Virus record (IMG/VR): IMGVR_UViG_3300045988_127716
Span: 30,446-94,445 of that record
From: a virus
Strand: one strand, 5' to 3'
Length of the DNA: 64,000 nucleotides
Every line of letters starts with the position of its first letter. Within the stretch, counting starts at the first letter, position 1. The notes below the pieces were generated by a model. It saw only the letters and a program-made list of their open reading frames with translations, ran no database searches and was not told the origin of the DNA. Of the stretch, positions 17,273-58,107 are shown in pieces. The position numbers and the translations under genes were made by a program.

Positions 17273-17302
17273 CAAAAGTCACTTACAATACTGCATATTT
17301 AA

Positions 17303-17373
17303 GAACGAATAGCTTAGCGGATAAAGCAATTATCTTCAAATAATAGTTCTGGGTTCGATTCCCAGTTTGTTTA
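17303..17373 (+). tRNA. tRNA, 71 nt, atypical anticodon arm; loop reads cttcaa(a) so candidate anticodon TCA (UGA-reading) or TTC
   Basis: Acceptor gaacgaa/tttgttt (two G-U pairs), D-arm gctt-agcggata-aagc, T-arm ctggg-ttcgatt-cccag. The anticodon stem attat/ataat is perfect only with a 6-nt loop; other registers give a 7- or 8-nt loop with a weaker stem. ACTTACAATA lies 13 nt upstream. Confidence 0.5.
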
Positions 17374-18116
17374 GTAAAATTAGTGACTATTTATATGGGC
17401 TAGTTCTGGCTTTGACAGGTGATTAGAACAGTATTAAGACATGTAGGAAGGCAGTTTCCTTATAAAGGCAAAACTAATAAATGCTAAAGGTAGAGTAATC
17501 TCCTTCTCTAGACCTGCAGCTATTGCAGCGTAAGAGTTGGGTTGTCAACTGACCTAGAAACAGAATAGTTGTAAATATTAAAAAAGGATTGTATTAATAT
17601 AAACAAACCAGAATCCTTGAACCTTAAAAGGTGACAGACCATTGGGTAATTCCATAGGAGCGCTGTTAGGTTTATGAAGTTTCCTTATTCTTTAAAAATA
17701 AGGTGGTGGAGTGGTAATCTACGGTTACCCCAAAGTTTGATAGTTTGTATATACTAGTCATTATAAATACATTGTATTTATTGCACTATTTTAAGAGTTC
17801 TAGTAAAACTATCTATAATTGATCTATGTGATTTATAGATCATAAACATGTATATCTTAATACTAAGTAAATTGTCTGGACCGGAGTTCGACTCTCCGCT
17901 AGTCCACGGGAACAAGTTAGATGTGCTCAGGGGGGATACCCTGAGGGTTAGATAGGGATGGAATCAGAAGTACTAGTCTCCTTCTAGATTGAACCAAGAA
18001 AAGAGTATATAAGCATAGTGGACGCACTAAATTTTGTGAAATTACTCCGCCAAAGAGATTTGGTCTAGTGGCATCTAACTTTTTAAAAATATTAACATTT
18101 TAAATAACAAAACAGT

Positions 18117-18563: not shown

Positions 18564-18711
18564 GTTTATAAAAACAGTAGCAAGATTATAGTTTACATTT
18601 CTTGCTACTGCATGTTACTTACAATCTAACAAAACTTGTCTGATCTGCAAGTAAAAAAGGATCTCCATAGCTATCATCTTTATTAATAATTAAGTTTAAC
18701 CAAGTAACATT

Positions 18712-20544
18712 ATGAAAGTAGAATTAAATAACAAAGAAACAAATCCTTTTTCTGGGTTAAGAAACTGTTTGAAGATTTTCAACAACGGTGGTCAAGGCAT
18801 CACATTAAGTCAAGATGATTTAAATAAAGCCTGGGAAGAGGTAAAAGATAGTAAAGAGAAGAAAGAGATGTTTTTCTCTCTATTATTCTCATTAGGAGAT
18901 ATTACTGCCAGACAACACAACATCTTTAGAGGTCAAAAAGTTGATTCTGGAGGTAATTCTCAAAGGGAAATCTTTTTCAATTGCATGGAGTGGATGAAAA
19001 AGAATATCCCAGATCAGTTCTTTAAATTCATGAAATCTCATTTATTTAATGAGTATACTTGTTTTGATAATCTATTTAGGAATAGAGTTCAAACTCAGGG
19101 TAAGAAGATTATATCTATTAAATCTGTGTTGAATACATCTGATAATAGATATTTCAATGAGTTATTAGATTACACTGAATCTATTATCAAAGGTAAAAAT
19201 CCTTATGACAAGATGCTTGTAGCTAAATTCTTAACTCTTCCTAGATTATCTCCAAGAAAAGAGCATAAACAAATGCTTCCTCAAACTAAAGAATTGATGA
19301 AAGCAAAGGCTAAATTCTTAGAAGAATTATCTAAGAGAATGAATTGGTCTTATAAAATTGAAGGAAATATACTAAACTTCAAAGGATATAGAGAGTGGAG
19401 GAAGGAATACAACTCTACATTAGAATCTGTTCTTTTCAGTACTGGAAAGATTAAAGATTTTGATGAAATTCAGTTCTTAGAATGGTTGGATAGAATCCCT
19501 GCGCAAGCTAGATTCAGAGTGAGAAACAGAATCATGTTTGAGAAAGAGGGGGTATTTAAATATCCTAAACTGAAAGAGTGGTATGAAAAGTGGGAGAAAT
19601 ACAAAGAAGAGAAACAGGCAGAGCAAAGAGTTCTTGAAGAGAAAGTTCGTCAAGGACAGGCTAGTGTAGAGGATAAAGTTAAATTGGAAAAGGTTAAAAA
19701 AGAAGCCAAGGTAACAGTTGGATCTACTAACTTCCAAGAACTTTATAAAGAGATCCTTAGTGGAAGGATTGATAAACTTAAATTGGAGTCTTTTGTGAAT
19801 AACAAAGTAAGTCTTCAATATAATAGTTTAGTGATTATTGATGACTCTGGATCTATGGGTGGTGCGCCTTTCAACTTTGCTAAATTTATTGCATCTGTTT
19901 GTCTTGTTAAAAATCCAGATGATGATGGAAGAAACCTTTTAGGATTCTTCAATTATGACTCTAGACTATATGGAAGTATGGATAGAGCTGGAAGTAAGAC
20001 TCCTAATAGCTTAATGAGATCAAGTGTGAAGAACATTGTTAAGAAACCTTTTGTAGATCCTCATAAGAGTTTCTATGAAAACTATCAAAACATTTCTTCA
20101 TTCTGCCAAGGTGTATTCCAAGGTGGAGGTACTAGAATAAATAGTATCCCAAAAGGATTTGCTGAACAAGCTAATAATAATCCTGTATTATTAGATGAAC
20201 TTATGCAATATCCAGTTTGGACAATTGTCTCAGATGGAGAATGGAATAATATGTATTCTCCAGAAGCTTCAATGAATGAATTCTTCAGAGATTGTGAGAA
20301 TCTTTTAGGATTTAGACCATTTATCATTGCGATAGATATTCAAAATCCTAATTGGGCACATCAGATATTTAAAGCTGATAGATTTACTGGTATAGATAAC
20401 ATGATCTATATTCCAAGTAACCCAGCTCAAATTGAGCAAATTCTTACAAATTTCAAGGACATTGAAATCTTTGATGTCTATACTCCGTTACTCTCTTTAT
20501 ACAGAAGTAATAGATATGATCTAGTAAGGGCTAATGTAATTTAG
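18712..20544 (+). CDS. vWA-domain protein with large N-terminal domain; hypothesised TROVE/Ro60 (Rsr)-like RNA-binding protein
   Basis: 610 aa. Clear MIDAS motif LVIIDDSGSMGG at about residue 377, the position of the vWA domain in Ro60. N-terminal segments LRNCLKIFNNGGQGITL and EMFFSLLFSLGDI recall Ro60 TROVE segments (…FL.FGSEGGTYY… and …PMLFALA…). Permuted tRNA-like ncRNA candidates lie immediately downstream. The vWA call is firm; the TROVE assignment is inference. Confidence 0.45.
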   Translation: MKVELNNKETNPFSGLRNCLKIFNNGGQGITLSQDDLNKAWEEVKDSKEKKEMFFSLLFSLGDITARQHNIFRGQKVDSGGNSQREIFFNCMEWMKKNIPDQFFKFMKSHLFNEYTCFDNLFRNRVQTQGKKIISIKSVLNTSDNRYFNELLDYTESIIKGKNPYDKMLVAKFLTLPRLSPRKEHKQMLPQTKELMKAKAKFLEELSKRMNWSYKIEGNILNFKGYREWRKEYNSTLESVLFSTGKIKDFDEIQFLEWLDRIPAQARFRVRNRIMFEKEGVFKYPKLKEWYEKWEKYKEEKQAEQRVLEEKVRQGQASVEDKVKLEKVKKEAKVTVGSTNFQELYKEILSGRIDKLKLESFVNNKVSLQYNSLVIIDDSGSMGGAPFNFAKFIASVCLVKNPDDDGRNLLGFFNYDSRLYGSMDRAGSKTPNSLMRSSVKNIVKKPFVDPHKSFYENYQNISSFCQGVFQGGGTRINSIPKGFAEQANNNPVLLDELMQYPVWTIVSDGEWNNMYSPEASMNEFFRDCENLLGFRPFIIAIDIQNPNWAHQIFKADRFTGIDNMIYIPSNPAQIEQILTNFKDIEIFDVYTPLLSLYRSNRYDLVRANVI

Positions 20545-20618
20545 TCCTTACTATTAAAATGACTCAATTATTATAAAAAACAATACAGATACTTACAATA
20601 TTATAAGAATCAATTTAT

Positions 20619-20674
20619 GCAGGTTCGACTCCTGTCTTTTGCATTGGCAGAAGTGGCGAAATTGGTATACGCAC
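20619..20674 (+). ncRNA. permuted tRNA-like module 1 (T-arm, then 3' acceptor strand, tetraloop, 5' acceptor strand, then D-arm); YrlA/Y-RNA-like candidate
   Basis: gcagg-ttcgact-cctgt T-arm (20619-20635). cttttgc-attg-gcagaag forms a 7-bp acceptor-like hairpin. Then tg-gcg-aaattggtata-cgc D-arm-like. ACTTACAATA lies 19 nt upstream. Confidence 0.45.
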
Positions 20675-20779
20675 TGGTCTGAAAAACTGGGGAATATAAT
20701 ATTCAATAGTATCTATTTATGACTTTTCTTTTCCTTGCATGATATATTGATACTTACAAGATCAGACAATCTGTAGGTC

Positions 20780-20837
20780 GAGGGTTCGAATCCTTCAAAT
20801 CGCGCGTTTTGCGAATTTAGCTCAGTAGGTTTAGAGC
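20780..20837 (+). ncRNA. permuted tRNA-like module 2 (T-arm, then acceptor-like hairpin, then canonical D-arm tagctcagtaggtttagagc)
   Basis: gaggg-ttcgaat-ccttc T-arm. aaatcgc-gcgtttt-gcgaatt hairpin with 6 of 7 pairs. Then ta-gctc-agtaggttta-gagc. ACTTACAAGA lies about 20 nt upstream. Confidence 0.45.
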
Positions 20838-20920
20838 AATAGACATTGAAGTATCATTCATATAAGAAAATAATGTTTAGAATAAAAATTATAAAGTCAC
20901 TTACAATATTATCATAATTC

Positions 20921-20994
20921 GTAGAAATAACTCAATAGGATAGAGTACAAAACTTATAATTTTGGTGTTCAGGGTTCAAGTCCCTGTTTTTACA
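20921..20994 (+). tRNA. tRNA-Ile(TAT)
   Basis: Acceptor gtagaaa/tttttac, D-arm actc/gagt, anticodon arm caaaa-ctTATaa-ttttg perfect, T-arm caggg-ttcaagt-ccctg. ACTTACAATA lies 15 nt upstream. Confidence 0.75.
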
Positions 20995-21031
20995 GTGTAA
21001 TTATTATAGTGACTAATTTTATATTTTAAGG

Positions 21032-21133
21032 GGATGGTTTATAACTATTAGTAAATTTATATTTACTTACAAAATCATAAACTGTATGGAAAAATTTACA
21101 CCACAAATGTAGATAAGCAGGTTCGAATCCTGC
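21032..21133 (+). ncRNA. tRNA-like element with ~30-nt insertion (perfect 7-bp long-range acceptor pairing ggggatg/catcccc about 95 nt apart)
   Basis: 5' strand at 21032-21038; T-arm gcagg-ttcgaat-cctgc then catcccc-g. The insertion contains the hairpin agtaaat-ttat-atttact followed by tacaaaatc (the ACTTACAAAATC motif). Confidence 0.4.
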
Positions 21134-21170
21134 CATCCCCGCAAAAGCTACTTACAATAAGATTTAAATT

Positions 21171-21243
21171 ATAACAATAGCTCAATAGGCTGAGCAAATT
21201 TCTGGGGAAAATTAGGTTGTAGGTTCAAGTCCTACTTGTTAAT
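21171..21243 (+). tRNA. tRNA-Pro(GGG)
   Basis: 73 nt. D-arm gctc-aataggct-gagc, anticodon arm aattt-ctGGGga-aaatt perfect, T-arm gtagg-ttcaagt-cctac. Acceptor ataacaa/ttgttaa has an A-A at position 1:72. Motif lies 21 nt upstream. Confidence 0.65.
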
Positions 21244-21277
21244 AAATTTAAAAGTAGCTATTTTTATGAATACTTAA

Positions 21278-21694: not shown

Positions 21695-21808
21695 GGGGAG
21701 GTTGAAATGTTGGAATAAGAGTATCAGTTCATTGTGATACTTACAAAATCAAATTAATTTTCGAATAAATTTGGGTTTTATCTTAACGCAGGTTCGATTC
21801 CTGTCCTC
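21695..21808 (+). ncRNA. tRNA-like element with ~35-nt insertion (perfect 7-bp long-range acceptor pairing ggggagg/cctcccc); 3' part contains a Pro(TGG)-like anticodon arm
   Basis: 5' strand 21695-21701. Insertion has the hairpin agtatca-gttcattg-tgatact followed by tacaaaatc. Then ataaa-ttTGGgt-tttat arm, then T-arm gcagg-ttcgatt-cctgt, then cctcccc-a. Confidence 0.4.
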
Positions 21809-21854
21809 CCCACTACGTTTCGTAAGAGCAAATAGTCAGACACTTACAATACTA

Positions 21855-21927
21855 TAAATTGTAGCTCATTGGGTAGAGCATTTGATTTTTAATCAAAGGG
21901 TAATGGGTTCAAATCCCATCTTAGTGT
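21855..21927 (+). tRNA. tRNA-Lys(TTT), copy 1, with non-pairing acceptor stem as drawn
   Basis: Canonical D-arm tagctcattgggtagagca, anticodon arm tttga-ttTTTaa-tcaaa, T-arm atggg-ttcaaat-cccat. But the 5' strand taaattg does not pair with 3' cttagtg. Motif lies 4 nt upstream. Confidence 0.45.
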
Positions 21928-21939
21928 CTATTTTTAAAT

Positions 21940-22011: not shown

Positions 22012-22101
22012 CATTTATTCTTGTTTATTGTTCCATATGTGTTATTGAATGAGTGTATAGGTAGAAATACTTATACACTCTTTTTATTTAAAATTAGTTA
22101 T

Positions 22102-23553: not shown

Positions 23554-23739
23554 GATTTAGATAGGAATAATTTTTATGAAAATTTCTTATAAAATTATTT
23601 GGAATTTGAAAATTATTACCTTATCTTTGTATTCATCTTCGATAAGATAAACTGTTGAAAGGAATTTAATAGTTCTAAGTAAATAAAGGATGAGAGTTTC
23701 ATAAAATATTATCATATTTTACTTTAGATCATCCTAAAT

Positions 23740-23814
23740 GGGTTCTTAGCCAAGTAGGTAAAGGCACCTGACTCATAATCAGGAGATACGCTGGTTCGAT
23801 CCCAGCAGAGCCCA
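23740..23814 (+). tRNA. tRNA-Met(CAT), copy 2
   Basis: Acceptor gggttct/agagccc, anticodon arm cctga-ctCATaa-tcagg perfect, T-arm gctgg-ttcgatc-ccagc. Confidence 0.75.
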
Positions 23815-24320: not shown

Positions 24321-24408
24321 GGAAGATTGCTAGAACGGTAATAGAACAGTCTTGAAAACTGATGTAACGTAATCATTCGTTGAGCAGGTTCGACTCCTGC
24401 ATCTTCCT
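24321..24408 (+). tRNA. tRNA-Ser(TGA), type II
   Basis: Acceptor ggaagat/atcttcc perfect, anticodon loop ctTGAaa, long variable arm with aacg/cgtt stem, T-arm gcagg-ttcgact-cctgc. Confidence 0.75.
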
Positions 24409-24419
24409 CATTAAATAAT

Positions 24420-24491
24420 GCTCCAATAGTTTAACGGATAAAACAATTCTCTTCTAAAGAATAAATTCTAGTTCGATTCTAGGTTGGAGTA
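24420..24491 (+). tRNA. tRNA-Arg(TCT)
   Basis: D-arm gttt/aaac, anticodon arm attct-ctTCTaa-agaat perfect, T-arm tctag-ttcgatt-ctagg. Confidence 0.75.
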
Positions 24492-27881: not shown

Positions 27882-27955
27882 GGAACTGTAGCTCAGTAGG
27901 TAGAGCACTAGATTGAAGATCTAGGTTTGCACTGGTTCGATCCCAGTTAGTTCCA
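27882..27955 (+). tRNA. tRNA-Phe(GAA)
   Basis: Canonical D-arm tagctcagtaggtagagca, anticodon arm ctaga-ttGAAga-tctag perfect, T-arm actgg-ttcgatc-ccagt, acceptor ggaactg/tagttcc. Confidence 0.8.
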
Positions 27956-28312: not shown

Positions 28313-28386
28313 AGAGGATTAACTCAGCGGTTGAGAGTGTCACTTTTACACAGTGAAAGTCATAGGTTCGAATCCTATATCCTCTA
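28313..28386 (+). tRNA. tRNA-Val(TAC)
   Basis: Acceptor agaggat/atcctct perfect, anticodon arm tcact-ttTACac-agtga perfect, T-arm atagg-ttcgaat-cctat. Confidence 0.8.
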
Positions 28387-28388
28387 CT

Positions 28389-28462
28389 GTGTTATTAGCT
28401 TAGTTGGTTAAAGCGCTGGGTTGTGGTTCCAGAGATCATGGGTTCAAGTCCCATATAACACC
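28389..28462 (+). tRNA. tRNA-His(GTG)
   Basis: Acceptor gtgttat/ataacac perfect, D-arm gctt/aagc, anticodon arm ctggg-ttGTGgt-tccag, T-arm atggg-ttcaagt-cccat. Confidence 0.8.
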
Positions 28463-40320: not shown

Positions 40321-40639
40321 ATGTGAATATTGCAGAAGTGTTAATGTATGTATAGATAGTCCTAACTGTAATACAACTGGACACTTTTGTACTAAATTAA
40401 ATAGATTAGTTTCTATTAATAAACCTGTTGACGAAGATTGTCCATTTTATTTTAATAAATATAGTTATAGGGAGTTAATCAATTTAAGAGATTCTTTAAT
40501 TTCAGAACTGTACAAAATTAGAGTTAAATGGCGCAAAGGAATTACTGTCACTTTAGAAGATTCACTATTTGCTCAGGATATCGAAGATACAATATACAAT
40601 GTATTTAATAAATTATTAGATAAACAAAATGGAGATTAA
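40304..40639 (+). CDS. Cys-rich small protein (possible zinc-binding)
   Basis: 111 aa with CEYC…C…C…C…C pattern in the first 50 residues. Confidence 0.35.
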   Translation: MNCVAECEYCRSVNVCIDSPNCNTTGHFCTKLNRLVSINKPVDEDCPFYFNKYSYRELINLRDSLISELYKIRVKWRKGITVTLEDSLFAQDIEDTIYNVFNKLLDKQNGD

Positions 40640-41798
40640 ATCAATTTTAGATACAGATCTATATAAATTCTCTGTATCATATGCTTATATGAGATTATTC
40701 CCAGACGCAATTGGAACATTTGAATTTGTAGATAGGAATAAATCTCATTATACAGAAGATGATCTGGATTATATAAATTATGAACTTGCAAATCTTTCTG
40801 CACTTAAATTAAGTGATAATGAAAAAAGATTTATGCAAGATAGATGTTACTTTATTCCAGACTACTATTTTGAATGGTTACAATCATTTAAATTTGATTG
40901 TAGAAATTTATCTATTTCCTTAGATGAAGAAAATCATCTTCATATAAAAGTTACAGATTATTTATATAAAGTAACTCTTTGGGAAATTCCAATTCTTGCA
41001 ATAGTTAGTAGAACCCAGCATAGAGAAGACAAATGGAATATAGATGATTTATATACTAGAACTAGTAATAAAGTACACAACCTTCCATATGAATTCAAAG
41101 TCGCCGATTTCGGAACCAGAAGAAGATTTAATTTTGAAGTTCAGTCAGAAGTGATTGATAAACTATTACATGACTGTCCTCAGAATTTTGTTGGAACATC
41201 CAATTGTTATATAGCTTATCTAAGAGATATTAAAATGATTGGAACTTTTCCTCATGAGTGGGTGATGTTTCATGGTGCTATGTATGGATATGATCAAGCT
41301 AACTATTTAGCTTTAGAGAATTGGGTTAATGTATATGATGGAGAATTAGGAATTGCTTTATCTGATACTTACACATCTGATGTGTTCTTTAGAAATTTCT
41401 CTAAGAAACATGCAAGATTATTTGATGGAGTAAGACAAGATTCTGGAGATCCATTTCAGTTTATTAATAAATGTATTGATAGGTATAGAGAATTAAATGT
41501 AGATCCTCTTACTAAGACTATTGTATTCTCTGATTCATTAGATTTCAAGAAAGCAGTTGATATATTTAATTGCTGTAAGGGAAGGATTAAATGTTCATTT
41601 GGAATTGGAACTAATTTAACTTGCGATTTAGAGGGAGTTAAACCTTCTAATATTGTGATGAAGTTAGTTTCTTGTCAGATGAATAGTAAACAACCTGTGA
41701 AGAAATGTATTAAACTATCTGATGTAGAAGGAAAACATATAGGTGATCCAGAAGAAGTAGCGTTAGCACAAATGATAATAAGTCAACATTATGAGTGA
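40629..41798 (+). CDS. pncB: nicotinate phosphoribosyltransferase (PncB-type, NAPRTase family)
   Basis: 389 aa. N-terminal ILDTDLYKFSVSYAYMRLFP resembles the PncB N-terminus (LLDTDAYKL…). Size fits PncB (about 400 aa) rather than NAMPT (about 480 aa). Adjacent to PncA. Confidence 0.65.
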   Translation: MEIKSILDTDLYKFSVSYAYMRLFPDAIGTFEFVDRNKSHYTEDDLDYINYELANLSALKLSDNEKRFMQDRCYFIPDYYFEWLQSFKFDCRNLSISLDEENHLHIKVTDYLYKVTLWEIPILAIVSRTQHREDKWNIDDLYTRTSNKVHNLPYEFKVADFGTRRRFNFEVQSEVIDKLLHDCPQNFVGTSNCYIAYLRDIKMIGTFPHEWVMFHGAMYGYDQANYLALENWVNVYDGELGIALSDTYTSDVFFRNFSKKHARLFDGVRQDSGDPFQFINKCIDRYRELNVDPLTKTIVFSDSLDFKKAVDIFNCCKGRIKCSFGIGTNLTCDLEGVKPSNIVMKLVSCQMNSKQPVKKCIKLSDVEGKHIGDPEEVALAQMIISQHYE

Positions 41799-42751
41799 AA
41801 TTAGAGAAATTAAAGAATGTTATGAATAGAGATTTAAATTATTCAAAAGTATTTGATACTTTAGTAAATGAAACTAAGAAATATCTTGAAGACCATAATT
41901 TACAAGCTATGGTTCTGGGCATTAGTGGTGGTATTGATTCTACTGTTACTGCTGCGATTTGTTCTGAAGTTAGTAAATGCACTGATATTCCATTGATTGG
42001 AAGAAGTCTTCCAATTAAAAACAAGGATGATGAATTTAATGTATCTAAGTTAGTTGGAGAAGCATTTTGTACTAATTTCCAAGTATGTAATCTTGACGAG
42101 AGTTTATTATACACTAAAGTATTACAAACTATAGAACACTTTGAAGGGGAGGGATCTATATCTAAAATAGCCAATGGAAATATTCAAGCTAGACTTAGGA
42201 TGATTTATCTTTATAATTTAGCATCAACTCATAATGGAATAGTAATATCTACTGATAATCAAACAGAATATCAGTTAGGATTCTGGACTTTACATGGTGA
42301 TGTTGGAGATTTTAACCCTCTATTTGGGTTATGGAAGACTGAGATATATGAGTTAGCTAAACAATTAGAGACTTGGTATGGTACAGAAGCAGAAGGAGCA
42401 GAAGAAGAATATTTTGTAGGGTGCTGTGAAAGAGAAAATGCCATTCATCAATCTATTAAACTCACTCCAACTGATGGACTTGGAATTAGTAATTCCGATT
42501 TAGATCAGATAGGAGCTAAATCTTATTCAGAAGTTGATGATATTTTACAGGAATTTGAGGCTTTTCAATACTTATATCCAAAACAACTTGCAGGAATGAC
42601 TTTAAAGGAAAAGGCTAAAGAGTTTTTGGATAATCAAGAAATGCTTTATATAGAGCCAGAAGTTATCGTTAAGGTAATTGATAGACACGTTAAATCAGAA
42701 TTCAAAAGAAAGAATCTTCCAATTTGTATAACTAGAGATAAGTATGAATAA
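41795..42751 (+). CDS. nadE: NH3-dependent NAD+ synthetase (NadE, PP-loop ATP pyrophosphatase)
   Basis: 318 aa. LGISGGIDSTVTAA is the SGGxDS PP-loop. NadE-like length and layout. Confidence 0.75.
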   Translation: MKLEKLKNVMNRDLNYSKVFDTLVNETKKYLEDHNLQAMVLGISGGIDSTVTAAICSEVSKCTDIPLIGRSLPIKNKDDEFNVSKLVGEAFCTNFQVCNLDESLLYTKVLQTIEHFEGEGSISKIANGNIQARLRMIYLYNLASTHNGIVISTDNQTEYQLGFWTLHGDVGDFNPLFGLWKTEIYELAKQLETWYGTEAEGAEEEYFVGCCERENAIHQSIKLTPTDGLGISNSDLDQIGAKSYSEVDDILQEFEAFQYLYPKQLAGMTLKEKAKEFLDNQEMLYIEPEVIVKVIDRHVKSEFKRKNLPICITRDKYE

Positions 42752-52465: not shown

Positions 52466-52699
52466 ATGAAGGATTTAGATAAACAAATAGAAGCAAAAGA
52501 TAAAGTCTATAAAGTAATATTATCCTGTGAAAACAGAAAACAGCTTGAAGAGGCTCAAAATTGGATTGATGGTTTATGTAAAATATATGAAAGATCTAAG
52601 AATGAGTCTATTAAAGAAAGTTCTTTAAATGTATTAAAAGGATGTTCAGACTTAGTTTACCATAGACTAAGAGAGTTTGATAAAAAAGAAGGTTCTTAA
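52466..52699 (+). CDS. hypothetical protein
   Basis: 77-aa ORF. Confidence 0.35.
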   Translation: MKDLDKQIEAKDKVYKVILSCENRKQLEEAQNWIDGLCKIYERSKNESIKESSLNVLKGCSDLVYHRLREFDKKEGS

Positions 52700-53918
52700 T
52701 ATGGAAAAGTCTGAGAAAATACTAGAGGTAATTGATAAATGGAAAGCTAATAAAGGAAGAGGTTTAGTAGAGTGGCCCACACGTATGGGAAAAAGCCTAT
52801 TAGCTTTAGAAGTTATTAGAAGATTCTTAAATTCTAATCCAAATAAGAATGTTATAGTAGCGGTTCCTACTCAAGCTTTACAATATCAATGGTTCAATCT
52901 ATTATTAGATAAAGGGTTTTATGGTAAATGTAAAGCTTACACATATGATTATATAATTAAAAATATAAAATCATGTGATTTATTAATAGTAGATGAGATT
53001 CATAAATCTGTATCTGAAGTAAATATTAAATTATATTCAATACAATTTAAATTATTACTAGGATTAACTGCAACCTTAGAAAGATCAGATAATAGGCATC
53101 TAAAATTATCTGTTATTTGTCCTGTTATAGATAAAGTATCTAAAGAGGAGGCAATTAAGAATGGATGGATTAATGAGTATAAAGAATATAAATTAATCAT
53201 TGATGTTGAGGATATAGATAAATATAAGGAGCATGATGAGAAATTTCAAAAGTACTTTAATTTCTTTAATCAAGATTTCAATTTGGCTATGTCATGTGTT
53301 AAAAGTAAGGATGTAAGAAGAACTATTACTGATTTCAAAAAATGTAATCCAAAGATAACAGATGCTTGTACATTTGGATTTAACAGAGAATTGAAAGCAA
53401 GAATAGAGTTCATACAGTCCCATCCAAAAAAGACCCAATTAGCTAAGAAAATTTTAGAGAAAAGGAAGACATCGAAAACTATAATATTCTCTCCCACAAT
53501 CGAAATTTCACGTAAATTTCAGGGTTTTTATTATAACTCTAATATGAGTAATAAGGAAAAAATTAGAGAATTGTCAGATTTTCAAAATTGTGTTTCTGGA
53601 GTTTTATCAGCTGTGAATGGGATTACCTTAGGAATGGAGTTGAATGGATGTAATCTAGCATTGATGTTATGTAATAATTCATCTTTTGATGTAAAAGAGC
53701 AGAAGATTGGAAGATTGTTATCTAAAAGAAAGGATGGAATTATTCCAGAAGCTTTTACTTTTGTATTGAAGAATACTGTTGAAGAAGAATGGTTTAGAAG
53801 AAGTACAAAAGAGAATGATTATATAACTATTACAGAAAAAATGTTAGATAGATTGTTAGACGGTGAGGAAATTCTTGAAGAAAGGATTGAAGGACCTATA
53901 ATGTTAAATAATTATTGA
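52677..53918 (+). CDS. SF2 (DExH-type) helicase
   Basis: 413 aa. Motif I WPTRMGKS, Ia VAVPTQAL, II LLIVDEIHK, III GLTATLE. Confidence 0.6.
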   Translation: MIKKKVLNMEKSEKILEVIDKWKANKGRGLVEWPTRMGKSLLALEVIRRFLNSNPNKNVIVAVPTQALQYQWFNLLLDKGFYGKCKAYTYDYIIKNIKSCDLLIVDEIHKSVSEVNIKLYSIQFKLLLGLTATLERSDNRHLKLSVICPVIDKVSKEEAIKNGWINEYKEYKLIIDVEDIDKYKEHDEKFQKYFNFFNQDFNLAMSCVKSKDVRRTITDFKKCNPKITDACTFGFNRELKARIEFIQSHPKKTQLAKKILEKRKTSKTIIFSPTIEISRKFQGFYYNSNMSNKEKIRELSDFQNCVSGVLSAVNGITLGMELNGCNLALMLCNNSSFDVKEQKIGRLLSKRKDGIIPEAFTFVLKNTVEEEWFRRSTKENDYITITEKMLDRLLDGEEILEERIEGPIMLNNY

Positions 53919-55869: not shown

Positions 55870-57085
55870 TAATTTTGTCACTAAACGTTAATTTTCAGTA
55901 AATAATATATTTTATATACATTATTTGGAGATGTCTCCAAATATGTTTATCTTTGTAATTATTAATTTAATTACATTTAAACATGAAAAATGATATAGAA
56001 TATAACATTTCTGGAATTTATAAAATTACAAACATTGTAAATAATAAAATTTATATCGGATCATCTAAAAATATAAAAAATAGATGGTTTAAACACACAG
56101 CATTGTTAAGACATAACAAACATGAAAATAAACATCTCCAAAATGCTTGGAACAAGTATGGAGAAGAGAATTTTAAATTTGAAATTGTTGAACAATGTGA
56201 AGTTGAAGAATTACTAATCAGAGAACAATTTTATTTGGACTCTTTATTATTTGCTCAAGAATTTATATCTAATAAAGATATAAGATTCTATAAACTAGGA
56301 TACAATCAAACCCCTATTTCTAATGGAGATTATAACACTGAGGAATCAAAAAAGAAAATTTCAGAAACTCTTAAAAGAAAATATGATTCTGGAGAAATAG
56401 AAAAGCAACATACTAAAATTGTATTTCAATACAACAGATTTAATGGAAATCTTATAAAAGTATGGGATTGTATAAATGATGCAAATAGACATTATGGAGT
56501 AACTAATCTAAGATCATCTAAAATAAACAGATGTCTTTGGGGAGAAACTCCAAGTGCATTTGATTCCTATTGGTCTTTAGAGCCTATAGAGTTCATATAT
56601 GCTAAAAAACCTCAAACAAAAGAAGGAATAATTTGCGTACAAGATGTGGAAAGAAATACTTATTTTTTTGCATCTTCGTATACAGAACTTGCTGAAATGC
56701 TTGGAGTTCCTGGAGCAAGGAGTACTTTAAAAAAATGTCATGATTCGAATTCTTTATATAAAAATAGATACAAATTTACAATGATTATGGCCCCTATCAT
56801 TTATGATAGCAAACCTTTTGAATTGCTGGGACATCGCGAAGATTTAGAAACTAAAACAGAAGAAGAAATTCTAAATGGAAATGTAAAAAATTCTAAATTA
56901 TGTGATAATCAGCAGCCAAGCTCCTAAGTGAAAATATGGAGAAGGTTCACAGACTATCCTGAAAAGGAGTAGAAATCAAGTGATTTCGAAGCGGAAGGTA
57001 CTACAATATAGTAGTAATGATATAGTCAGAACTTATGTGAAAGCATAAGAGAATATATGGAAACGATATATTCGTAACAAAATTG
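55870..57085 (+). mobile_element. proposed group I-like intron (about 1.2 kb) carrying a GIY-YIG homing-endonuclease ORF, inserted in the Walker A codons of the DnaB-like helicase
   Basis: Exon 1 ends in U (55869). Joining it to ca-gga-aag-act (57086 onward) gives GDSG-S-GKTT, a perfect Gx4GKT P-loop. The proposed intron ends with G (57085). HEG sits 113 nt from the 5' splice site and 158 nt from the 3' site. Exact boundaries are inferred, not demonstrated. Confidence 0.5.
55983..56927 (+). CDS. GIY-YIG homing endonuclease (intron-encoded)
   Basis: 314 aa. SGIYKITNIVNNKIYIGSSKNIKNRWFKH is a textbook GIY-YIG motif. The long C-terminal region is consistent with a DNA-binding domain. Confidence 0.85.
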   Translation: MKNDIEYNISGIYKITNIVNNKIYIGSSKNIKNRWFKHTALLRHNKHENKHLQNAWNKYGEENFKFEIVEQCEVEELLIREQFYLDSLLFAQEFISNKDIRFYKLGYNQTPISNGDYNTEESKKKISETLKRKYDSGEIEKQHTKIVFQYNRFNGNLIKVWDCINDANRHYGVTNLRSSKINRCLWGETPSAFDSYWSLEPIEFIYAKKPQTKEGIICVQDVERNTYFFASSYTELAEMLGVPGARSTLKKCHDSNSLYKNRYKFTMIMAPIIYDSKPFELLGHREDLETKTEEEILNGNVKNSKLCDNQQPSS

Positions 57086-58107
57086 CAGGAAAGACTACTT
57101 ATACATTATTTACTCATGTATATAAACCTTTACAGTTCGCATTAGAAAATCCAAATATTCCAGTGAAGATATTATATTTTTCCTTGGAAATGAGTCCAGA
57201 AGTATTACTAGCTAAGTTATTAAGTTTATTTATTTCAGATCAATTCCATGTTCAAATATCTTATAAAGAAATTTTATCTTTAGGAGGTATTTTGGATGAT
57301 GATAAATTTGAATTAATATGTAAGGCTAAGGCTTGGTTGGAAAGAGTTGTTCAACATTTAACTATTTATGACAAAGCTGTTAATGCAGTTAGAGTTTATA
57401 ATGTAGTTAGAGAATGGGCAGGCAACTTTGGAACTTTTATGGAAGAGGAAAGTATGGAAATCTATGTTCCTAAGAATCCAGATATGTATAAAATTGTCGT
57501 TATTGACCATATGAGGCTATTAGTTGGATCAGATAAGAAAACGGAAATCAATACTTGTGCTGATTATTTAATCAACTTAAGAGATTTATGTAATCTTACG
57601 GTAGCTTTAGTTCAACAGGCCAATAGACAAATTAAATCTATGGATAGAAGAAATGGCGGTTATCAATATCTTCAGTTGGATGATATGGCTGATGCTTCTG
57701 GGCCTGCTCAAGGTTCTGAGGTTGTTATTGGTATATATTATCCTCATAGAGAGAAGAGAACCACTTGTGAAGGTTATGATATAAAGAAATTAAGAGACCA
57801 TGCTAGGATTATTCAAATCCTAAAGCATAGGTATGGAGTCTCAGATGTAATGAAGGGTATATTATTTAGAGGGGAGATAGGGTATTATAAAGAATTACCC
57901 AATCCCAATGATGGAGCCTTAAATTATGATGAGATATTAGATTATAATTATCTGTACATGGACAAACCATTATCAGATAATAACATCCTAGATAAATTAC
58001 CACCATTAGATGAAGAAAAAGATTTTACTTCTACGGAAGATTTATTTAATGATATAGATAGTTCTGATGGAAGTAGTGGGTTAAACTTTAATTTTGTTTT
58101 TGATTAA
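57086..58107 (+). CDS. DnaB-like replicative helicase, exon 2 (RecA-fold domain)
   Basis: Frame open from 57049. Contains …GKTTYTLF…ILYFSLEMS (H1a), KIVVIDHMRLL (Walker B), LVQQANRQIKSMDRRNG (H3), ARIIQILKHRYG (H4). Listed ORF 57163-58107 is the portion after an internal Met. Confidence 0.6.

What the first reader, a model, noticed from the sequence alone, without database searches (positions are those of the whole stretch)
20619..20837. Two tRNA-like modules with permuted arm order (T-arm, acceptor hairpin, D-arm)
This is independent of the Ro60 hypothesis. The order of recognisable tRNA parts is inverted in two adjacent copies: gcagg-ttcgact-cctgt then a 7-bp hairpin then the D-arm gcg…cgc, and gaggg-ttcgaat-ccttc then a hairpin then tagctcagtaggtttagagc. 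Each copy is preceded by the ACTTACAA motif. No matching normal-order partner halves exist nearby, so these are not simply split genes. Possibilities are permuted tRNA genes processed through a circular intermediate, tRNA-mimic ncRNAs, or recombination scars.
Basis: seen in the sequence. Interest (0 to 1): 0.6.

Follow-up and report, generated by a model that had tools for sequence, protein, structure and literature searches.

The report
Phage Ro60-linked permuted tRNA mimics
The two "scrambled tRNAs" are real, conserved RNA genes of the Y-RNA type: tRNA look-alikes opened at the bottom instead of the top, sitting beside a very diverged phage Ro60-like protein and carrying a docking motif not described before.

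Summary
Module 1 is 20587-20714 and module 2 is 20748-20856.

Each module is closed by a 7-bp terminal helix (NGNNACU paired with AGUNNCU). After the invariant UACAA come a T arm, a 7-bp closed "acceptor" hairpin, U8-R9 and a D arm. Module 1 also has a canonical anticodon arm (GAA).

A covariance model trained only on relatives finds both modules as its top two hits in the window (73.7 and 55.3 bits). In 23 relatives, 97.6% of structure cells pair and 21 of 28 pairs show compensatory changes, so these are not scars.

The family fails two YrlA criteria: the GNCGAA Ro-binding motif is absent (0 of 59 units) and Rfam YrlA scores 19.9 bits against a threshold of 69.

New features are the ACUUACAA stalk, full anticodon arms with fast-changing anticodons, an encoded N-CCA in 11 of 51 acceptor loops, and the same stalk used in three topologies.

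Verdict: a new variant of the Ro60/Y-RNA system. Protein binding, RNase P cleavage and function are inferred, not shown.

The parts
18712..20544 (+). 610-aa Ro60-like protein gene (N-terminal alpha-solenoid plus C-terminal vWA domain with MIDAS DxSxS, invariant D377/S379/S381)
18613..18709 (+). Stalk unit in the leader of the Ro60-like gene (X TGTTACT 18613-18619, UACAA, X' AGTAACA 18703-18709, ATG at 18712)
   Evidence: At least 20 related loci have the same arrangement, with X = [C/T/A]GTTACT or TTTTACT, its complement about 45-80 nt downstream, and the start codon at or inside the enclosed loop.
20587..20714 (+). Module 1: permuted, complete tRNA-like RNA. X 20587-20593; UACAA 20594-20598; T arm 20619-20635; 3' acceptor strand 20636-20642; loop ATTG 20643-20646; 5' acceptor strand 20647-20653; U8-G9; D arm 20656-20672; anticodon arm 20674-20690 (GAA); X' 20708-20714.
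   Evidence: Sequence. The MFE fold recovers every helix. Model R1, trained without the window, gives 73.7 bits and E 4e-14. The ortholog directly downstream of the gene in L026 has compensatory changes in the T stem and acceptor stem and anticodon CAA.
20748..20856 (+). Module 2: YrlA-like tRNA mimic without an anticodon arm. X 20748-20754; UACAA 20755-20759; small V-like hairpin CAGA-CAA-TCTG 20763-20773; T arm 20780-20796; acceptor hairpin 20797-20817; UA; D arm 20820-20837; X' 20850-20856.
   Evidence: Sequence. Rfam YrlA RF02553 aligns end to end but at only 19.9 bits against a gathering score of 69. R1 gives 55.3 bits and E 6e-10.
17277..17388 (+). Stalk unit enclosing a normal-order tRNA with anticodon loop CTTCAAA (UCA, opal-suppressor-like), 17303-17373
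   Evidence: X AGTCACT at 17277 and X' AGTGACT at 17382; tRNA.
20895..21014 (+). Stalk unit enclosing tRNA-Ile(UAU), 20921-20994
   Evidence: X AGTCACT at 20895 and X' at 21008; tRNA.
21030..21143 (+). 'Interrupted' tRNA-like RNA: open acceptor stem GGGGATG/CATCCCC and T arm 21117-21133. The anticodon arm is replaced by the closed stalk hairpin AGTAAAT-ttat-ATTTACT plus UACAA. It has the same circular order as modules 1 and 2.
   Evidence: Rfam tmRNA model hit is weak (12.1 bits).
21146..21259 (+). Stalk unit enclosing tRNA-Pro(GGG), 21171-21243
   Evidence: X AGCTACT at 21146 and X' at 21253.
21695..21812 (+). Second 'interrupted' tRNA-like RNA: GGGGAGG ... stalk hairpin AGTATCA-gttcattg-TGATACT plus UACAA ... 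T arm 21788-21804 ... CCTCCCC-A.
21838..21929 (+). Stalk unit in which the X/X' helix (AGACACT/AGTGTCT) takes the place of the acceptor stem of a tRNA-like body (D, anticodon UUU and T arms)
   Evidence: The Rfam tRNA hit 21861-20 covers only model positions 7-64. Sequence. R1 gives 42.2 bits.

Best explanation
Modules 1 and 2 are genes for Y-RNA-like tRNA mimics that belong to a Ro60-like ribonucleoprotein system of this ~185-kb uncultivated phage.

Each RNA folds as a tRNA body (T arm stacked on a 7-bp acceptor helix, U8-R9, D arm). The acceptor end is closed by a short loop. The RNA's own 5' and 3' ends meet at the other end in a 7-bp helix (5'-NGNNACU / AGUNNCU-3') that runs straight into the invariant single-stranded UACAA.

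I infer that this helix-plus-UACAA junction replaces the canonical GNCGAA bulged helix as the docking site for the adjacent diverged Ro60-like protein. I also infer that the same element in the protein's own mRNA leader gives feedback control.

By analogy with M. smegmatis YrlA, which has a 7-bp acceptor stem, is cut by RNase P and receives CCA, the acceptor loop is probably cut by host RNase P. That would give a two-piece, CCA-ended tRNA-like RNA held together by the stalk.

Module 2 is the plain YrlA design. Module 1 additionally keeps a true anticodon arm.

Shown: the structure, its conservation and covariation, the Ro60-like fold of the neighbour, and the exclusive clustering of the motif around that gene.

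Inferred: protein binding, RNase P and CCA processing, and the downstream role. By analogy with other Ro60/Y RNA systems, that role could be tethering a host exonuclease or serving as a tRNA-shaped platform or decoy in RNA damage conflicts.
For: (1) Architecture. The order T / acceptor hairpin / D with termini paired is that of YrlA (PMC4201824). Rfam YrlA aligns end to end to module 2.

(2) Selection on structure. In 23 relatives, with the window excluded, 97.6% of cells pair against 72% in shuffles and 34-41% when partners are slid. 21 of 28 pairs show double changes, and 0 of 500 shuffles reach the observed values. The acceptor hairpin is 7/7 in 22 of 26 units against 3.8% of shuffles, with 21 distinct sequences; U8-R9 is present in 25 of 26.

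(3) Independent detection. Model R1 ranks the two modules first and second in the 64-kb window. It finds 61 units at E<=1e-5 in about 40 loci, usually 2-4 adjacent. 19 of 25 units from untrained loci have 7/7 acceptor pairing.

(4) Stalk. 178 of 218 motif sites have an exact 7-mer complement, against 4-16 (downstream) and 1-10 (upstream) for decoy 7-mers. Stem positions 1-4 co-vary.

(6) Specific association. All 9 plus-strand motifs lie at 17.28-21.85 kb, flanking the gene. Only the 3 tRNAs beside it have the stalk; the other 24 do not. In a protein-blind scan of viral contigs, 17 of 23 stem-bearing matches lie in a stretch that also encodes the protein, against 5 of 65 matches without a stem.

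(7) The stalk is modular. It occurs outside the acceptor of normal tRNAs, in place of the anticodon arm (closed by a loop), and as the open end of the permuted units. This fits a binding platform better than a mere end-processing signal.

(8) N-CCA lies exactly after the 3' acceptor strand in 5 of 26 units (0.18 expected, P about 1e-6) and in 11 of 51.

(9) Precedent. Phage Ro60 proteins with adjacent Y-like RNAs are known (PMC12135203; PMC4201824).
Against: No binding, transcript or processing data exist; everything after the structure is inference.

The canonical Ro60-binding motif is absent: GNCGAA or CGAA is found in 0 of 59 units. Rfam YrlA never reaches its gathering score in the window or in 17 related loci.

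The motif stays the same down to about 30% protein identity, so there is no protein-RNA co-variation to support a direct contact. A host factor could read it instead.

A second stalk helix that would create a Y-RNA-like 'bulged helix' is not supported statistically (5.73 bp observed, 5.73 shuffled).

Full anticodon arms and encoded CCA are more tRNA-like than any described Y RNA.

TACAAT also resembles a -10 box.
Confidence: 0.6

Rival explanations
1. Functional circularly permuted (two-piece) tRNAs. The transcript is cut in the acceptor loop by RNase P and trimmed or extended to CCA. The two pieces stay together through the acceptor, D/T and X/X' helices, with the stalk taking the place of a long variable arm. 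The RNA is then aminoacylated and decodes. This applies to module 1 (anticodon GAA), not to module 2.
For: 31 of 51 units have a 5-bp stem and 7-nt loop at the exact tRNA position with U33 and R37 (mostly CU-NNN-AA), and 19 different anticodons. The acceptor is exactly 7 bp and abuts the T stem; U8-R9 and D-loop GG are kept. N-CCA is encoded in 11 of 51 units, often followed by a T-run. All parsed GAA units have A at the discriminator position (window, L017, L018, L028). Permuted genes giving two-piece tmRNAs are an established bacterial precedent (own knowledge).
Against: The same body carries UUU, GUU, GAU, GUC or UCA in near-identical relatives, and in L007, L010, L011 and L015 the anticodon arm is simply deleted. 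The base at the discriminator position is U in 19 of 51 units and does not track the anticodon. Some linkers are only 2 nt. Module 1 duplicates the phage's ordinary tRNA-Phe(GAA) at 27882 and is unrelated to it in sequence. 20 of 51 units, including module 2, have no anticodon arm yet share everything else. No bulge-helix-bulge was seen for a circular-intermediate route.
Confidence: 0.15
2. The stalk is only a processing or stability element of a polycistronic tRNA array, for example a leader-trailer helix for a host double-strand RNase. The link to the Ro60-like gene is just synteny. On this view modules 1 and 2 are tRNA-derived RNAs of some other function, or relics kept in the array.
For: Normal tRNAs (Ile, Pro, UCA) sit inside the same stalk. 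Units are packed head to tail with one strong terminator at the end of the array, 22051-22080. The motif does not co-vary with the protein.
Against: The stalk also occurs inside tRNA-like bodies closed by a loop, where cleavage would destroy them, and in the leader of the Ro60-like mRNA in at least 20 loci. 24 other tRNAs of the same phage are made without it. The strong purifying and compensatory pattern in the permuted bodies themselves shows they are not relics.
Confidence: 0.15
3. ACTTACAA(T) is a phage promoter (TACAAT as -10), and the permuted modules are decay products or recombination scars of tandem tRNA genes (a T arm of one gene next to the D arm of the next).
For: TACAAT is one mismatch from TATAAT; two sites pass the sigma-70 scan. 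Dimeric tRNAs are a known false-positive source for YrlA models (PMC4201824), and R1 does give weak hits at true tRNA-tRNA junctions (28338-28453 and 24357-24473).
Against: Nothing is conserved upstream of X, so there is no -35 element, and promoter-like sites are not enriched (30 against 24.8). The 7 nt overlapping the motif co-vary with a distal complement, which a promoter does not explain. The two acceptor strands are complementary, with 21 distinct sequences. Only one protein-coding gene in 64 kb has the motif upstream.
Confidence: 0.04

Closest known systems
YrlA-type bacterial and phage Y RNAs (Rfam RF02553; Chen et al. 2014, PMC4201824)
   Same: T-like, acceptor-like (AS) and D-like stem-loops in that order, with an optional V hairpin before T (module 2). 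The termini are paired in a stem. The genes lie next to a Ro60-type gene, often with two or more RNAs per locus. tRNA tertiary-pair nucleotides are kept.
   Different: There is no GNCGAA(N0-1)G motif (0 of 59 units); the invariant element is NGNNACU-UACAA instead. Rfam score is 19.9 against a threshold of 69. Many members, including module 1, keep a full anticodon arm. Arrays of up to about 9 stalk units surround the gene. The partner protein lacks a recognisable TROVE sequence signature.
Mycobacterium smegmatis YrlA (PMC4201824)
   Same: It has a 7-bp acceptor stem. That RNA is cleaved by RNase P and carries CCA in vivo. Here the acceptor hairpin is exactly 7 bp in 41 of 51 units, and N-CCA is encoded in 11 of 51.
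   Different: Cleavage and CCA status are untested here. In module 1 the loop is only 4 nt (A-TTG) with no encoded CCA.
Thermus phage phiLo Ro60 with Yrl1/Yrl2 (PMC12135203; PDB 9KOP, 9L5Y)
   Different: The phiLo RNAs were defined by a stem-bulge-stem with a CGAA motif and lie upstream of the gene. Here the motif is different and the RNAs are explicit tRNA bodies on both sides of the gene.
Deinococcus radiodurans Yrn1 (as described in PMC4201824)
   Same: It has the opposite permutation (D ... stem-loop ... T, with the termini at the other end). This parallels the 'interrupted' units at 21030-21143 and 21695-21812.
   Different: Those units have a perfect 7-bp G-rich acceptor stem and the ACUUACAA hairpin.
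Circularly permuted tRNA genes of Cyanidioschyzon merolae, and two-piece tmRNAs from permuted genes (own knowledge; reviewed in PMC3400036 and PMC4238349)
   Same: The 3' half (T arm plus 3' acceptor strand) is encoded upstream of the 5' half, with a short linker at the acceptor. The leader and trailer pair.
   Different: No bulge-helix-bulge was seen and the splicing-endonuclease context is unknown. The break lies in the variable region and would stay open. Discriminator bases and anticodons are inconsistent. Half of the family has no anticodon arm.

Membership tests
YrlA / bacterial Y RNA (RF02553) | T-like stem-loop with tRNA T-loop consensus | tested here: met
   GCAGG-TTCGACT-CCTGT and GAGGG-TTCGAAT-CCTTC. 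The T stem was 5/5 in the 26 parsed relatives (a selection criterion of that set), and 4 of its 5 pairs show compensatory changes.
YrlA / bacterial Y RNA (RF02553) | [quoted passage not shown] | tested here: met
   7 bp in module 1 and 6 of 7 in module 2. All 7 pairs co-vary in relatives. 22 of 26 units are 7/7 against 3.8% in shuffles.
YrlA / bacterial Y RNA (RF02553) | D-like stem-loop with conserved D-loop nucleotides, preceded by U8 | tested here: met
   TG-GCG-AAATTGGTATA-CGC and TA-GCTC-AGTAGGTTTA-GAGC. U8-R9 is present in 25 of 26 units. The D stem is 90% paired, with 3 of 4 pairs compensatory.
YrlA / bacterial Y RNA (RF02553) | 5' and 3' ends pair to form the stem that carries the Ro60 site | tested here: met
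   The X/X' helix of 7 bp is perfect in both modules. It is 100% paired in A2, and 178 of 218 sites have an exact complement against 4-16 and 1-10 for decoys.
YrlA / bacterial Y RNA (RF02553) | Conserved GNCGAA(N0-1)G (CGAA) Ro60-binding motif on the 5' strand | tested here: not met
   0 of 59 units contain GNCGAA or even CGAA 5' of the T arm; 46 of 59 start with NGNNACTTACAA.
YrlA / bacterial Y RNA (RF02553) | Reaches the Rfam gathering score | tested here: not met
   Module 2 scores 19.9 bits against 69, and module 1 has no hit. There is no YrlA hit in 17 related loci.
YrlA / bacterial Y RNA (RF02553) | Encoded adjacent to a Ro60 (TROVE plus vWA) gene | tested here: inconclusive
YrlA / bacterial Y RNA (RF02553) | Physically bound by Ro60 | not testable with these tools
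   Needs RIP or EMSA.
Ro60 / TROVE protein family (for the 610-aa ORF) | HEAT-like alpha-solenoid ring followed by a vWA domain with MIDAS | tested here: met
Ro60 / TROVE protein family (for the 610-aa ORF) | Sequence-level TROVE signature | tested here: not met
   There is no Pfam TROVE hit. The profile-vs-PDB search matches Ro60/TROVE only over the MIDAS region at E 0.018-0.34.
Circularly permuted tRNA gene (C. merolae type) | 3' half upstream of the 5' half, together giving a complete cloverleaf | tested here: met
   Module 1 only: T arm, both acceptor strands, D arm and anticodon arm are all present. Module 2 lacks the anticodon arm.
Circularly permuted tRNA gene (C. merolae type) | Bulge-helix-bulge at the leader-trailer junction for endonuclease cleavage and ligation into a circle | tested here: not met
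   The X/X' helix is an uninterrupted 7-bp helix in both modules and in the relatives. No 3-nt / 4-bp / 3-nt motif was seen by inspection of the folds. No dedicated BHB search was run.
Circularly permuted tRNA gene (C. merolae type) | Coherent aminoacylation identity (discriminator and body match the anticodon) | tested here: inconclusive
   GAA units have A at the discriminator position. But one body carries 5 different anticodons or none, and that position is U in 19 of 51 units.
Circularly permuted tRNA gene (C. merolae type) | Circular RNA intermediate and mature linear tRNA detected | not testable with these tools
   Needs RNA-seq or RT-PCR across the junction.

The most novel reading that the evidence does not exclude
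The members with anticodon arms, module 1 included, are true circularly permuted tRNA genes, the first in bacteria or their viruses. RNase P opens the acceptor loop, the 3' strand ends in CCA, and the result is a two-piece tRNA whose halves are clamped by the 7-bp stalk on a Ro60-like scaffold. Its rapidly switching anticodon (UUU, GUU, GAU, GUC, UCA on one body) is the functional read-out, either for decoding or as an anticodon-specific decoy or repair platform against host anticodon nucleases.
Probability: 0.2. Interest if true: 0.9.

Novelty: new variant of a known kind. Interest (0 to 1): 0.7.

Why it matters
Ro60/Y-RNA particles are conserved from bacteria to humans, and how Y RNAs specify what Ro60 does is still open.

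This is a large, abundant and entirely unannotated phage clade. The protein has 1220 homologs in the collection and none in GenBank phage records. Its sequence has diverged beyond Pfam recognition, the canonical RNA docking motif has been replaced, and the RNA partners have multiplied into arrays of up to about nine per locus.

Those arrays span a graded series from genuine tRNAs to tRNA mimics in three circular permutations. That gives a natural set of variants for asking what the stalk binds and what the tRNA-shaped head is for. The fast-changing anticodons and encoded CCA ends point to a link with tRNA-targeting conflicts between phage and host.

Practically, the covariance model built here finds RNA genes that tRNA finders and Rfam miss or mis-call.

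Tried and rejected
The structure only appears with the corrected boundaries.

(2) A second stalk helix inside X/X', which would make UACAA a Y-RNA-style bulge, is present in module 1 (20597-20605 with 20695-20703) and in L008. It is not supported family-wide: the longest helix is 5.73 bp both observed and shuffled. I dropped it as a family feature.

(4) Rfam YrlA at gathering threshold gave no hit anywhere.

(5) blastn and tblastn against GenBank phages found only stray tRNA matches or nothing.

(6) The search for related loci with the 52-sequence alignment failed because there was no conserved peptide stretch. A single closer protein worked.

(7) The protein-RNA co-evolution test failed to discriminate. 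The motif is unchanged at 30-34% protein identity and absent, together with tRNAs, at 27%.

(8) Module 1 as a rearranged copy of the phage's own tRNA-Phe: rejected, the sequences are unrelated.

(9) The promoter reading: there is no conserved upstream element and no enrichment of promoter-like sites.

(10) RNA ligase or repair genes among the ten largest other ORFs of the window: none found; they encode replication and NAD-salvage functions.

Full report
**Context.** The window comes from a ~185-kb uncultivated phage (100% match to IMGVR_UViG_3300045988_116753). It carries 27 ARAGORN tRNA genes and a tmRNA. Its large ORFs encode family A DNA polymerase, helicase, primase and NAD-salvage enzymes. 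No GenBank phage is related at the DNA level beyond single tRNAs.

**The observation.**
- Module 1 has T arm 20619-20635, a 7-bp hairpin CTTTTGC/GCAGAAG closed by ATTG (20636-20653), then TG and the D arm 20656-20672.
Rfam's tRNA model picks up this 5' half at 22.5 bits.
- Module 2 has T arm 20780-20796, hairpin 20797-20817 (6 of 7 bp), TA, and D arm 20820-20837, with no anticodon arm.
- ACTTACAA precedes both modules. It occurs 12 times in the window against 3.2 expected.

**The missed half of the motif.** The 7 nt that end inside each ACTTACAA are variable, and each is exactly complementary to a 7-mer downstream of the tRNA-like body: AGATACT 20587 with AGTATCT 20708, and TGATACT 20748 with AGTATCA 20850.
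- All nine plus-strand motifs in the window have such a partner. The three minus-strand motifs have none.
- Across 33 non-redundant sources, 178 of 218 motif sites have an exact complement, against 4-16 (downstream) and 1-10 (upstream) for decoy 7-mers. The four outer stem positions show all Watson-Crick types.
- The consensus is 5'-[A/U]GNNACU-UACAA[U]A ... AGUNNC[U]-AU-3', and nothing is conserved upstream of it.
- The real units are therefore 20587-20714 and 20748-20856. With these ends, the minimum-energy fold of module 1 reproduces the stalk, T arm, acceptor hairpin, D stem and anticodon arm.

**Relatives.** The upstream 610-aa ORF has 1220 homologs in the protein collection and 156 clusters at 50% identity, none of them named. 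I fetched loci for homologs of 27-71% identity. In them the motif-plus-stem unit recurs in four forms:
- Normal-order tRNAs enclosed by the stalk (50 units).
- Permuted units like modules 1 and 2 (30 units).
- 'Interrupted' tRNA-likes, in which the stalk is a closed hairpin replacing the anticodon arm while a 7-bp acceptor stem is open (22 distinct, 19 with 7/7 acceptor pairing). This is the exact circular permutation of the permuted class.
- Short stalk-only units (64). One of these always lies in the leader of the 610-aa gene, with the start codon at or inside the enclosed loop.

**The permuted class is under strong structural selection.** In 26 distinct units (selected for a 5/5 T stem) the results are as follows.
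- The next 7 nt pair 7/7 with a strand 2-12 nt further on in 22 of 26 units (3.8% in shuffles), using 21 different sequences.
- U8-R9 follows in 25 of 26 units.
- 16 of 26 units have a 5-bp/7-nt anticodon arm at the tRNA position.

On a MAFFT alignment of 23 relatives, with the window excluded, the five-helix structure is 97.6% paired. That compares with 72% in shuffles and 34-41% when partners are slid. 21 of 28 pairs show changes on both sides, and no shuffle out of 500 reached the observed values.

A covariance model from that alignment ranks module 1 (73.7 bits, E 4e-14) and module 2 (55.3 bits, E 6e-10) first and second in the 64-kb window. It finds 61 units at E<=1e-5 in about 40 loci, usually 2-4 side by side. 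Of 25 units from loci never used in training, 19 have a perfect acceptor hairpin.

The module 1 ortholog in L026 sits directly after the gene. It has compensatory changes in the T and acceptor stems and anticodon CAA instead of GAA. Recombination scars or decaying pseudogenes are therefore excluded.

**What it resembles.** T arm, closed acceptor-like hairpin, D arm, paired termini and an optional small hairpin before T are the defining layout of YrlA-type Y RNAs. Those RNAs lie beside Ro60 genes in more than 250 bacteria and phages (PMC4201824). Rfam's YrlA model aligns end to end to module 2, but only at 19.9 bits.

The neighbouring ORF has no Pfam, PHROG or PDB sequence hit. A confident AF2 model (pLDDT 87.5) shows an alpha-solenoid followed by a vWA domain with an invariant MIDAS motif.

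**Link between stalk and gene.**
- In the window the motif-bearing units lie only at 17.28-21.85 kb, on both sides of the gene. The three tRNAs there have the stalk, and the other 24 tRNAs do not.
- A protein-blind scan of viral contigs for ACTTACAA-N8-38-GGTTCGANTCC returned 88 matches. Of the 23 with the stem, 17 lie in a stretch where the gene is detectable, and two more are on the contig that L024 came from. Of the 65 without a stem, 60 have no gene; from the pattern, many of these are probably ordinary tRNA-Val(UAC) genes, although I did not confirm that.
- The same stalk sits in the gene's own leader in at least 20 loci.

**Where it departs from the known family.**
- The Ro60-binding signature GNCGAA(N0-1)G, or CGAA in the phiLo RNAs (PMC12135203), is absent from all 59 units; 46 of 59 begin with NGNNACUUACAA instead.
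- YrlA never reaches Rfam's gathering score.
- 31 of 51 units keep a real anticodon arm, with 19 different anticodons. One nearly invariant body carries UUU, GUU, GAU, GUC or UCA in different phages, or has the arm deleted.
- N-CCA is encoded exactly after the 3' acceptor strand in 5 of 26 units (0.18 expected, P about 1e-6) and in 11 of 51, often followed by a T-run.
- The only Y RNA with a 7-bp acceptor stem studied so far, M. smegmatis YrlA, is cut by RNase P and carries CCA (PMC4201824). The same fate is the simplest prediction here, and it would yield two-piece tRNA-like RNAs.

**Mechanism, and what is inferred.** Shown: the RNA structures, their conservation, the Ro60-like fold next door, and the exclusive clustering. 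Inferred: that the helix-UACAA junction is the docking site of the protein, that its copy in the mRNA leader mediates feedback, that RNase P opens the acceptor loop, and that the particle acts like other Ro60/Y RNPs. Known examples of that action are tethering an exonuclease such as PNPase (as shown for D. radiodurans and phiLo) or acting as a tRNA-shaped platform in RNA-damage conflicts (as proposed for jumbo-phage TROVE proteins, PMC7824862).

Cautions:
- A second stalk helix is not supported statistically.
- TACAAT could double as a -10 box, although no upstream element or promoter enrichment exists.

**Rivals.**
- A decoding two-piece tRNA is attractive for module 1. It is weakened by anticodon-independent bodies, a U at the discriminator position in 19 of 51 units, 2-nt linkers, redundancy with the normal tRNA-Phe, and the many arm-less members.
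- A pure processing stalk does not explain the internal, loop-closed stalks or the copy in the mRNA leader.
- Promoter plus scars is refuted by covariation.

**Verdict.** The finding is real and more interesting than described. It is a new variant of the Ro60/Y-RNA system in an unannotated phage clade, with a new docking motif and unusually complete, permuted tRNA bodies. I found no description of it in the searchable literature.

Noticed in passing
window 21030-21143 and 21695-21812; 20 more in L002-L030: 'Interrupted' tRNA-like genes. A perfect G-rich 7-bp acceptor stem (GGGGATG/CATCCCC, GGGGAGG/CCTCCCC) and a T arm are separated by about 80 nt, in which a closed X'-loop-X hairpin plus UACAA takes the place of the anticodon arm. 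The 3' tails read R-C-[A/T]. Rfam's tRNA model scores many relatives at 40-57 bits as 108-142-nt 'tRNAs', so annotation pipelines may mis-call them as intron-containing tRNAs.
   Followed up: partly
window 18613-18709; same position in at least 20 related loci: The ACUUACAA stalk also sits in the leader of the Ro60-like gene. Its complementary 7-mer lies 3 nt before the ATG here and inside the first ~10 codons in most relatives, so the start codon lies at or within the enclosed loop. X co-varies with its partner (C-G, T-A and A-T at position 1). This suggests autoregulation.
   Followed up: partly
L008 5973-6089, L009 5921-6031, L012 5870-5983, L014 5985-6093, L027 6027-6138: Nearly identical permuted bodies with an identical anticodon stem ATACA/TGTAT differ almost only in the three anticodon bases (UUU, GUU, GAU, GUC, UCA). 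In L007, L010, L011 and L015 the whole arm is deleted. This looks like diversifying change focused on the anticodon.
   Followed up: partly
window 21838-21929: A tRNA-like body (D arm, anticodon arm UUU, T arm) with no acceptor stem of its own. The stalk helix AGACACT/AGTGTCT sits where the acceptor stem should be, and UACAA plus 12 nt is inserted before the D arm. Rfam matches only tRNA model positions 7-64. Similar truncated hits occur in L026, L019, L022 and L014.
   Followed up: partly
window 17303-17373 (unit 17277-17388): A stalk-enclosed tRNA with anticodon loop CTTCAAA (UCA), which would read UGA. ARAGORN calls it tRNA-???. It may be a suppressor tRNA and hint at stop-codon recoding in part of this genome. 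The ORFs I examined are intact under code 11.
   Followed up: no
window 17397-17909; also L004 1996-2417, L020 2481-2968, L155 257-630: A phage-encoded tmRNA lies just upstream of the Ro60-like locus (Rfam 51.5 bits; ARAGORN tag VNIKKGLY*). It is conserved in position in distant relatives.
   Followed up: no
L002 5840-5891, L025 5342-5390, and about 60 others: Short stalk-only units: X-UACAA, 28-60 nt with no tRNA features, then X'. They often lie directly after the Ro60-like gene, where the window has module 1. They are possibly the counterpart of the short Y RNAs (YrlB-like).
   Followed up: no
window 28338-28453, 24357-24473, 23695-23792: Model R1 gives 30-36-bit hits across junctions of adjacent ordinary tRNAs (the T arm of one with the D arm of the next). 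This is the 'dimeric tRNA' false positive warned about for YrlA searches (PMC4201824). These hits lack the stalk and the complementary acceptor strands.
   Followed up: yes
window 40629-42751: Adjacent NAPRTase and NAD synthase genes (Pfam E 8e-59 and 1e-37). This NAD-salvage pair is of the kind phages use against NAD-depleting defences (own knowledge).
   Followed up: no
window 55983-56927: A GIY-YIG homing-endonuclease ORF lies between the helicase (52677-53918) and a DnaB_C-like ORF (57163-58107) in the replication module. It is possibly a mobile insertion.
   Followed up: no
window 22051-22080: This is the only convincing intrinsic terminator in 16.9-22.2 kb (13-bp stem plus T-run), and it lies just after tRNA-Gln. 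That is consistent with the whole stalk-unit array plus the Ro60-like gene being one or a few transcription units.
   Followed up: no
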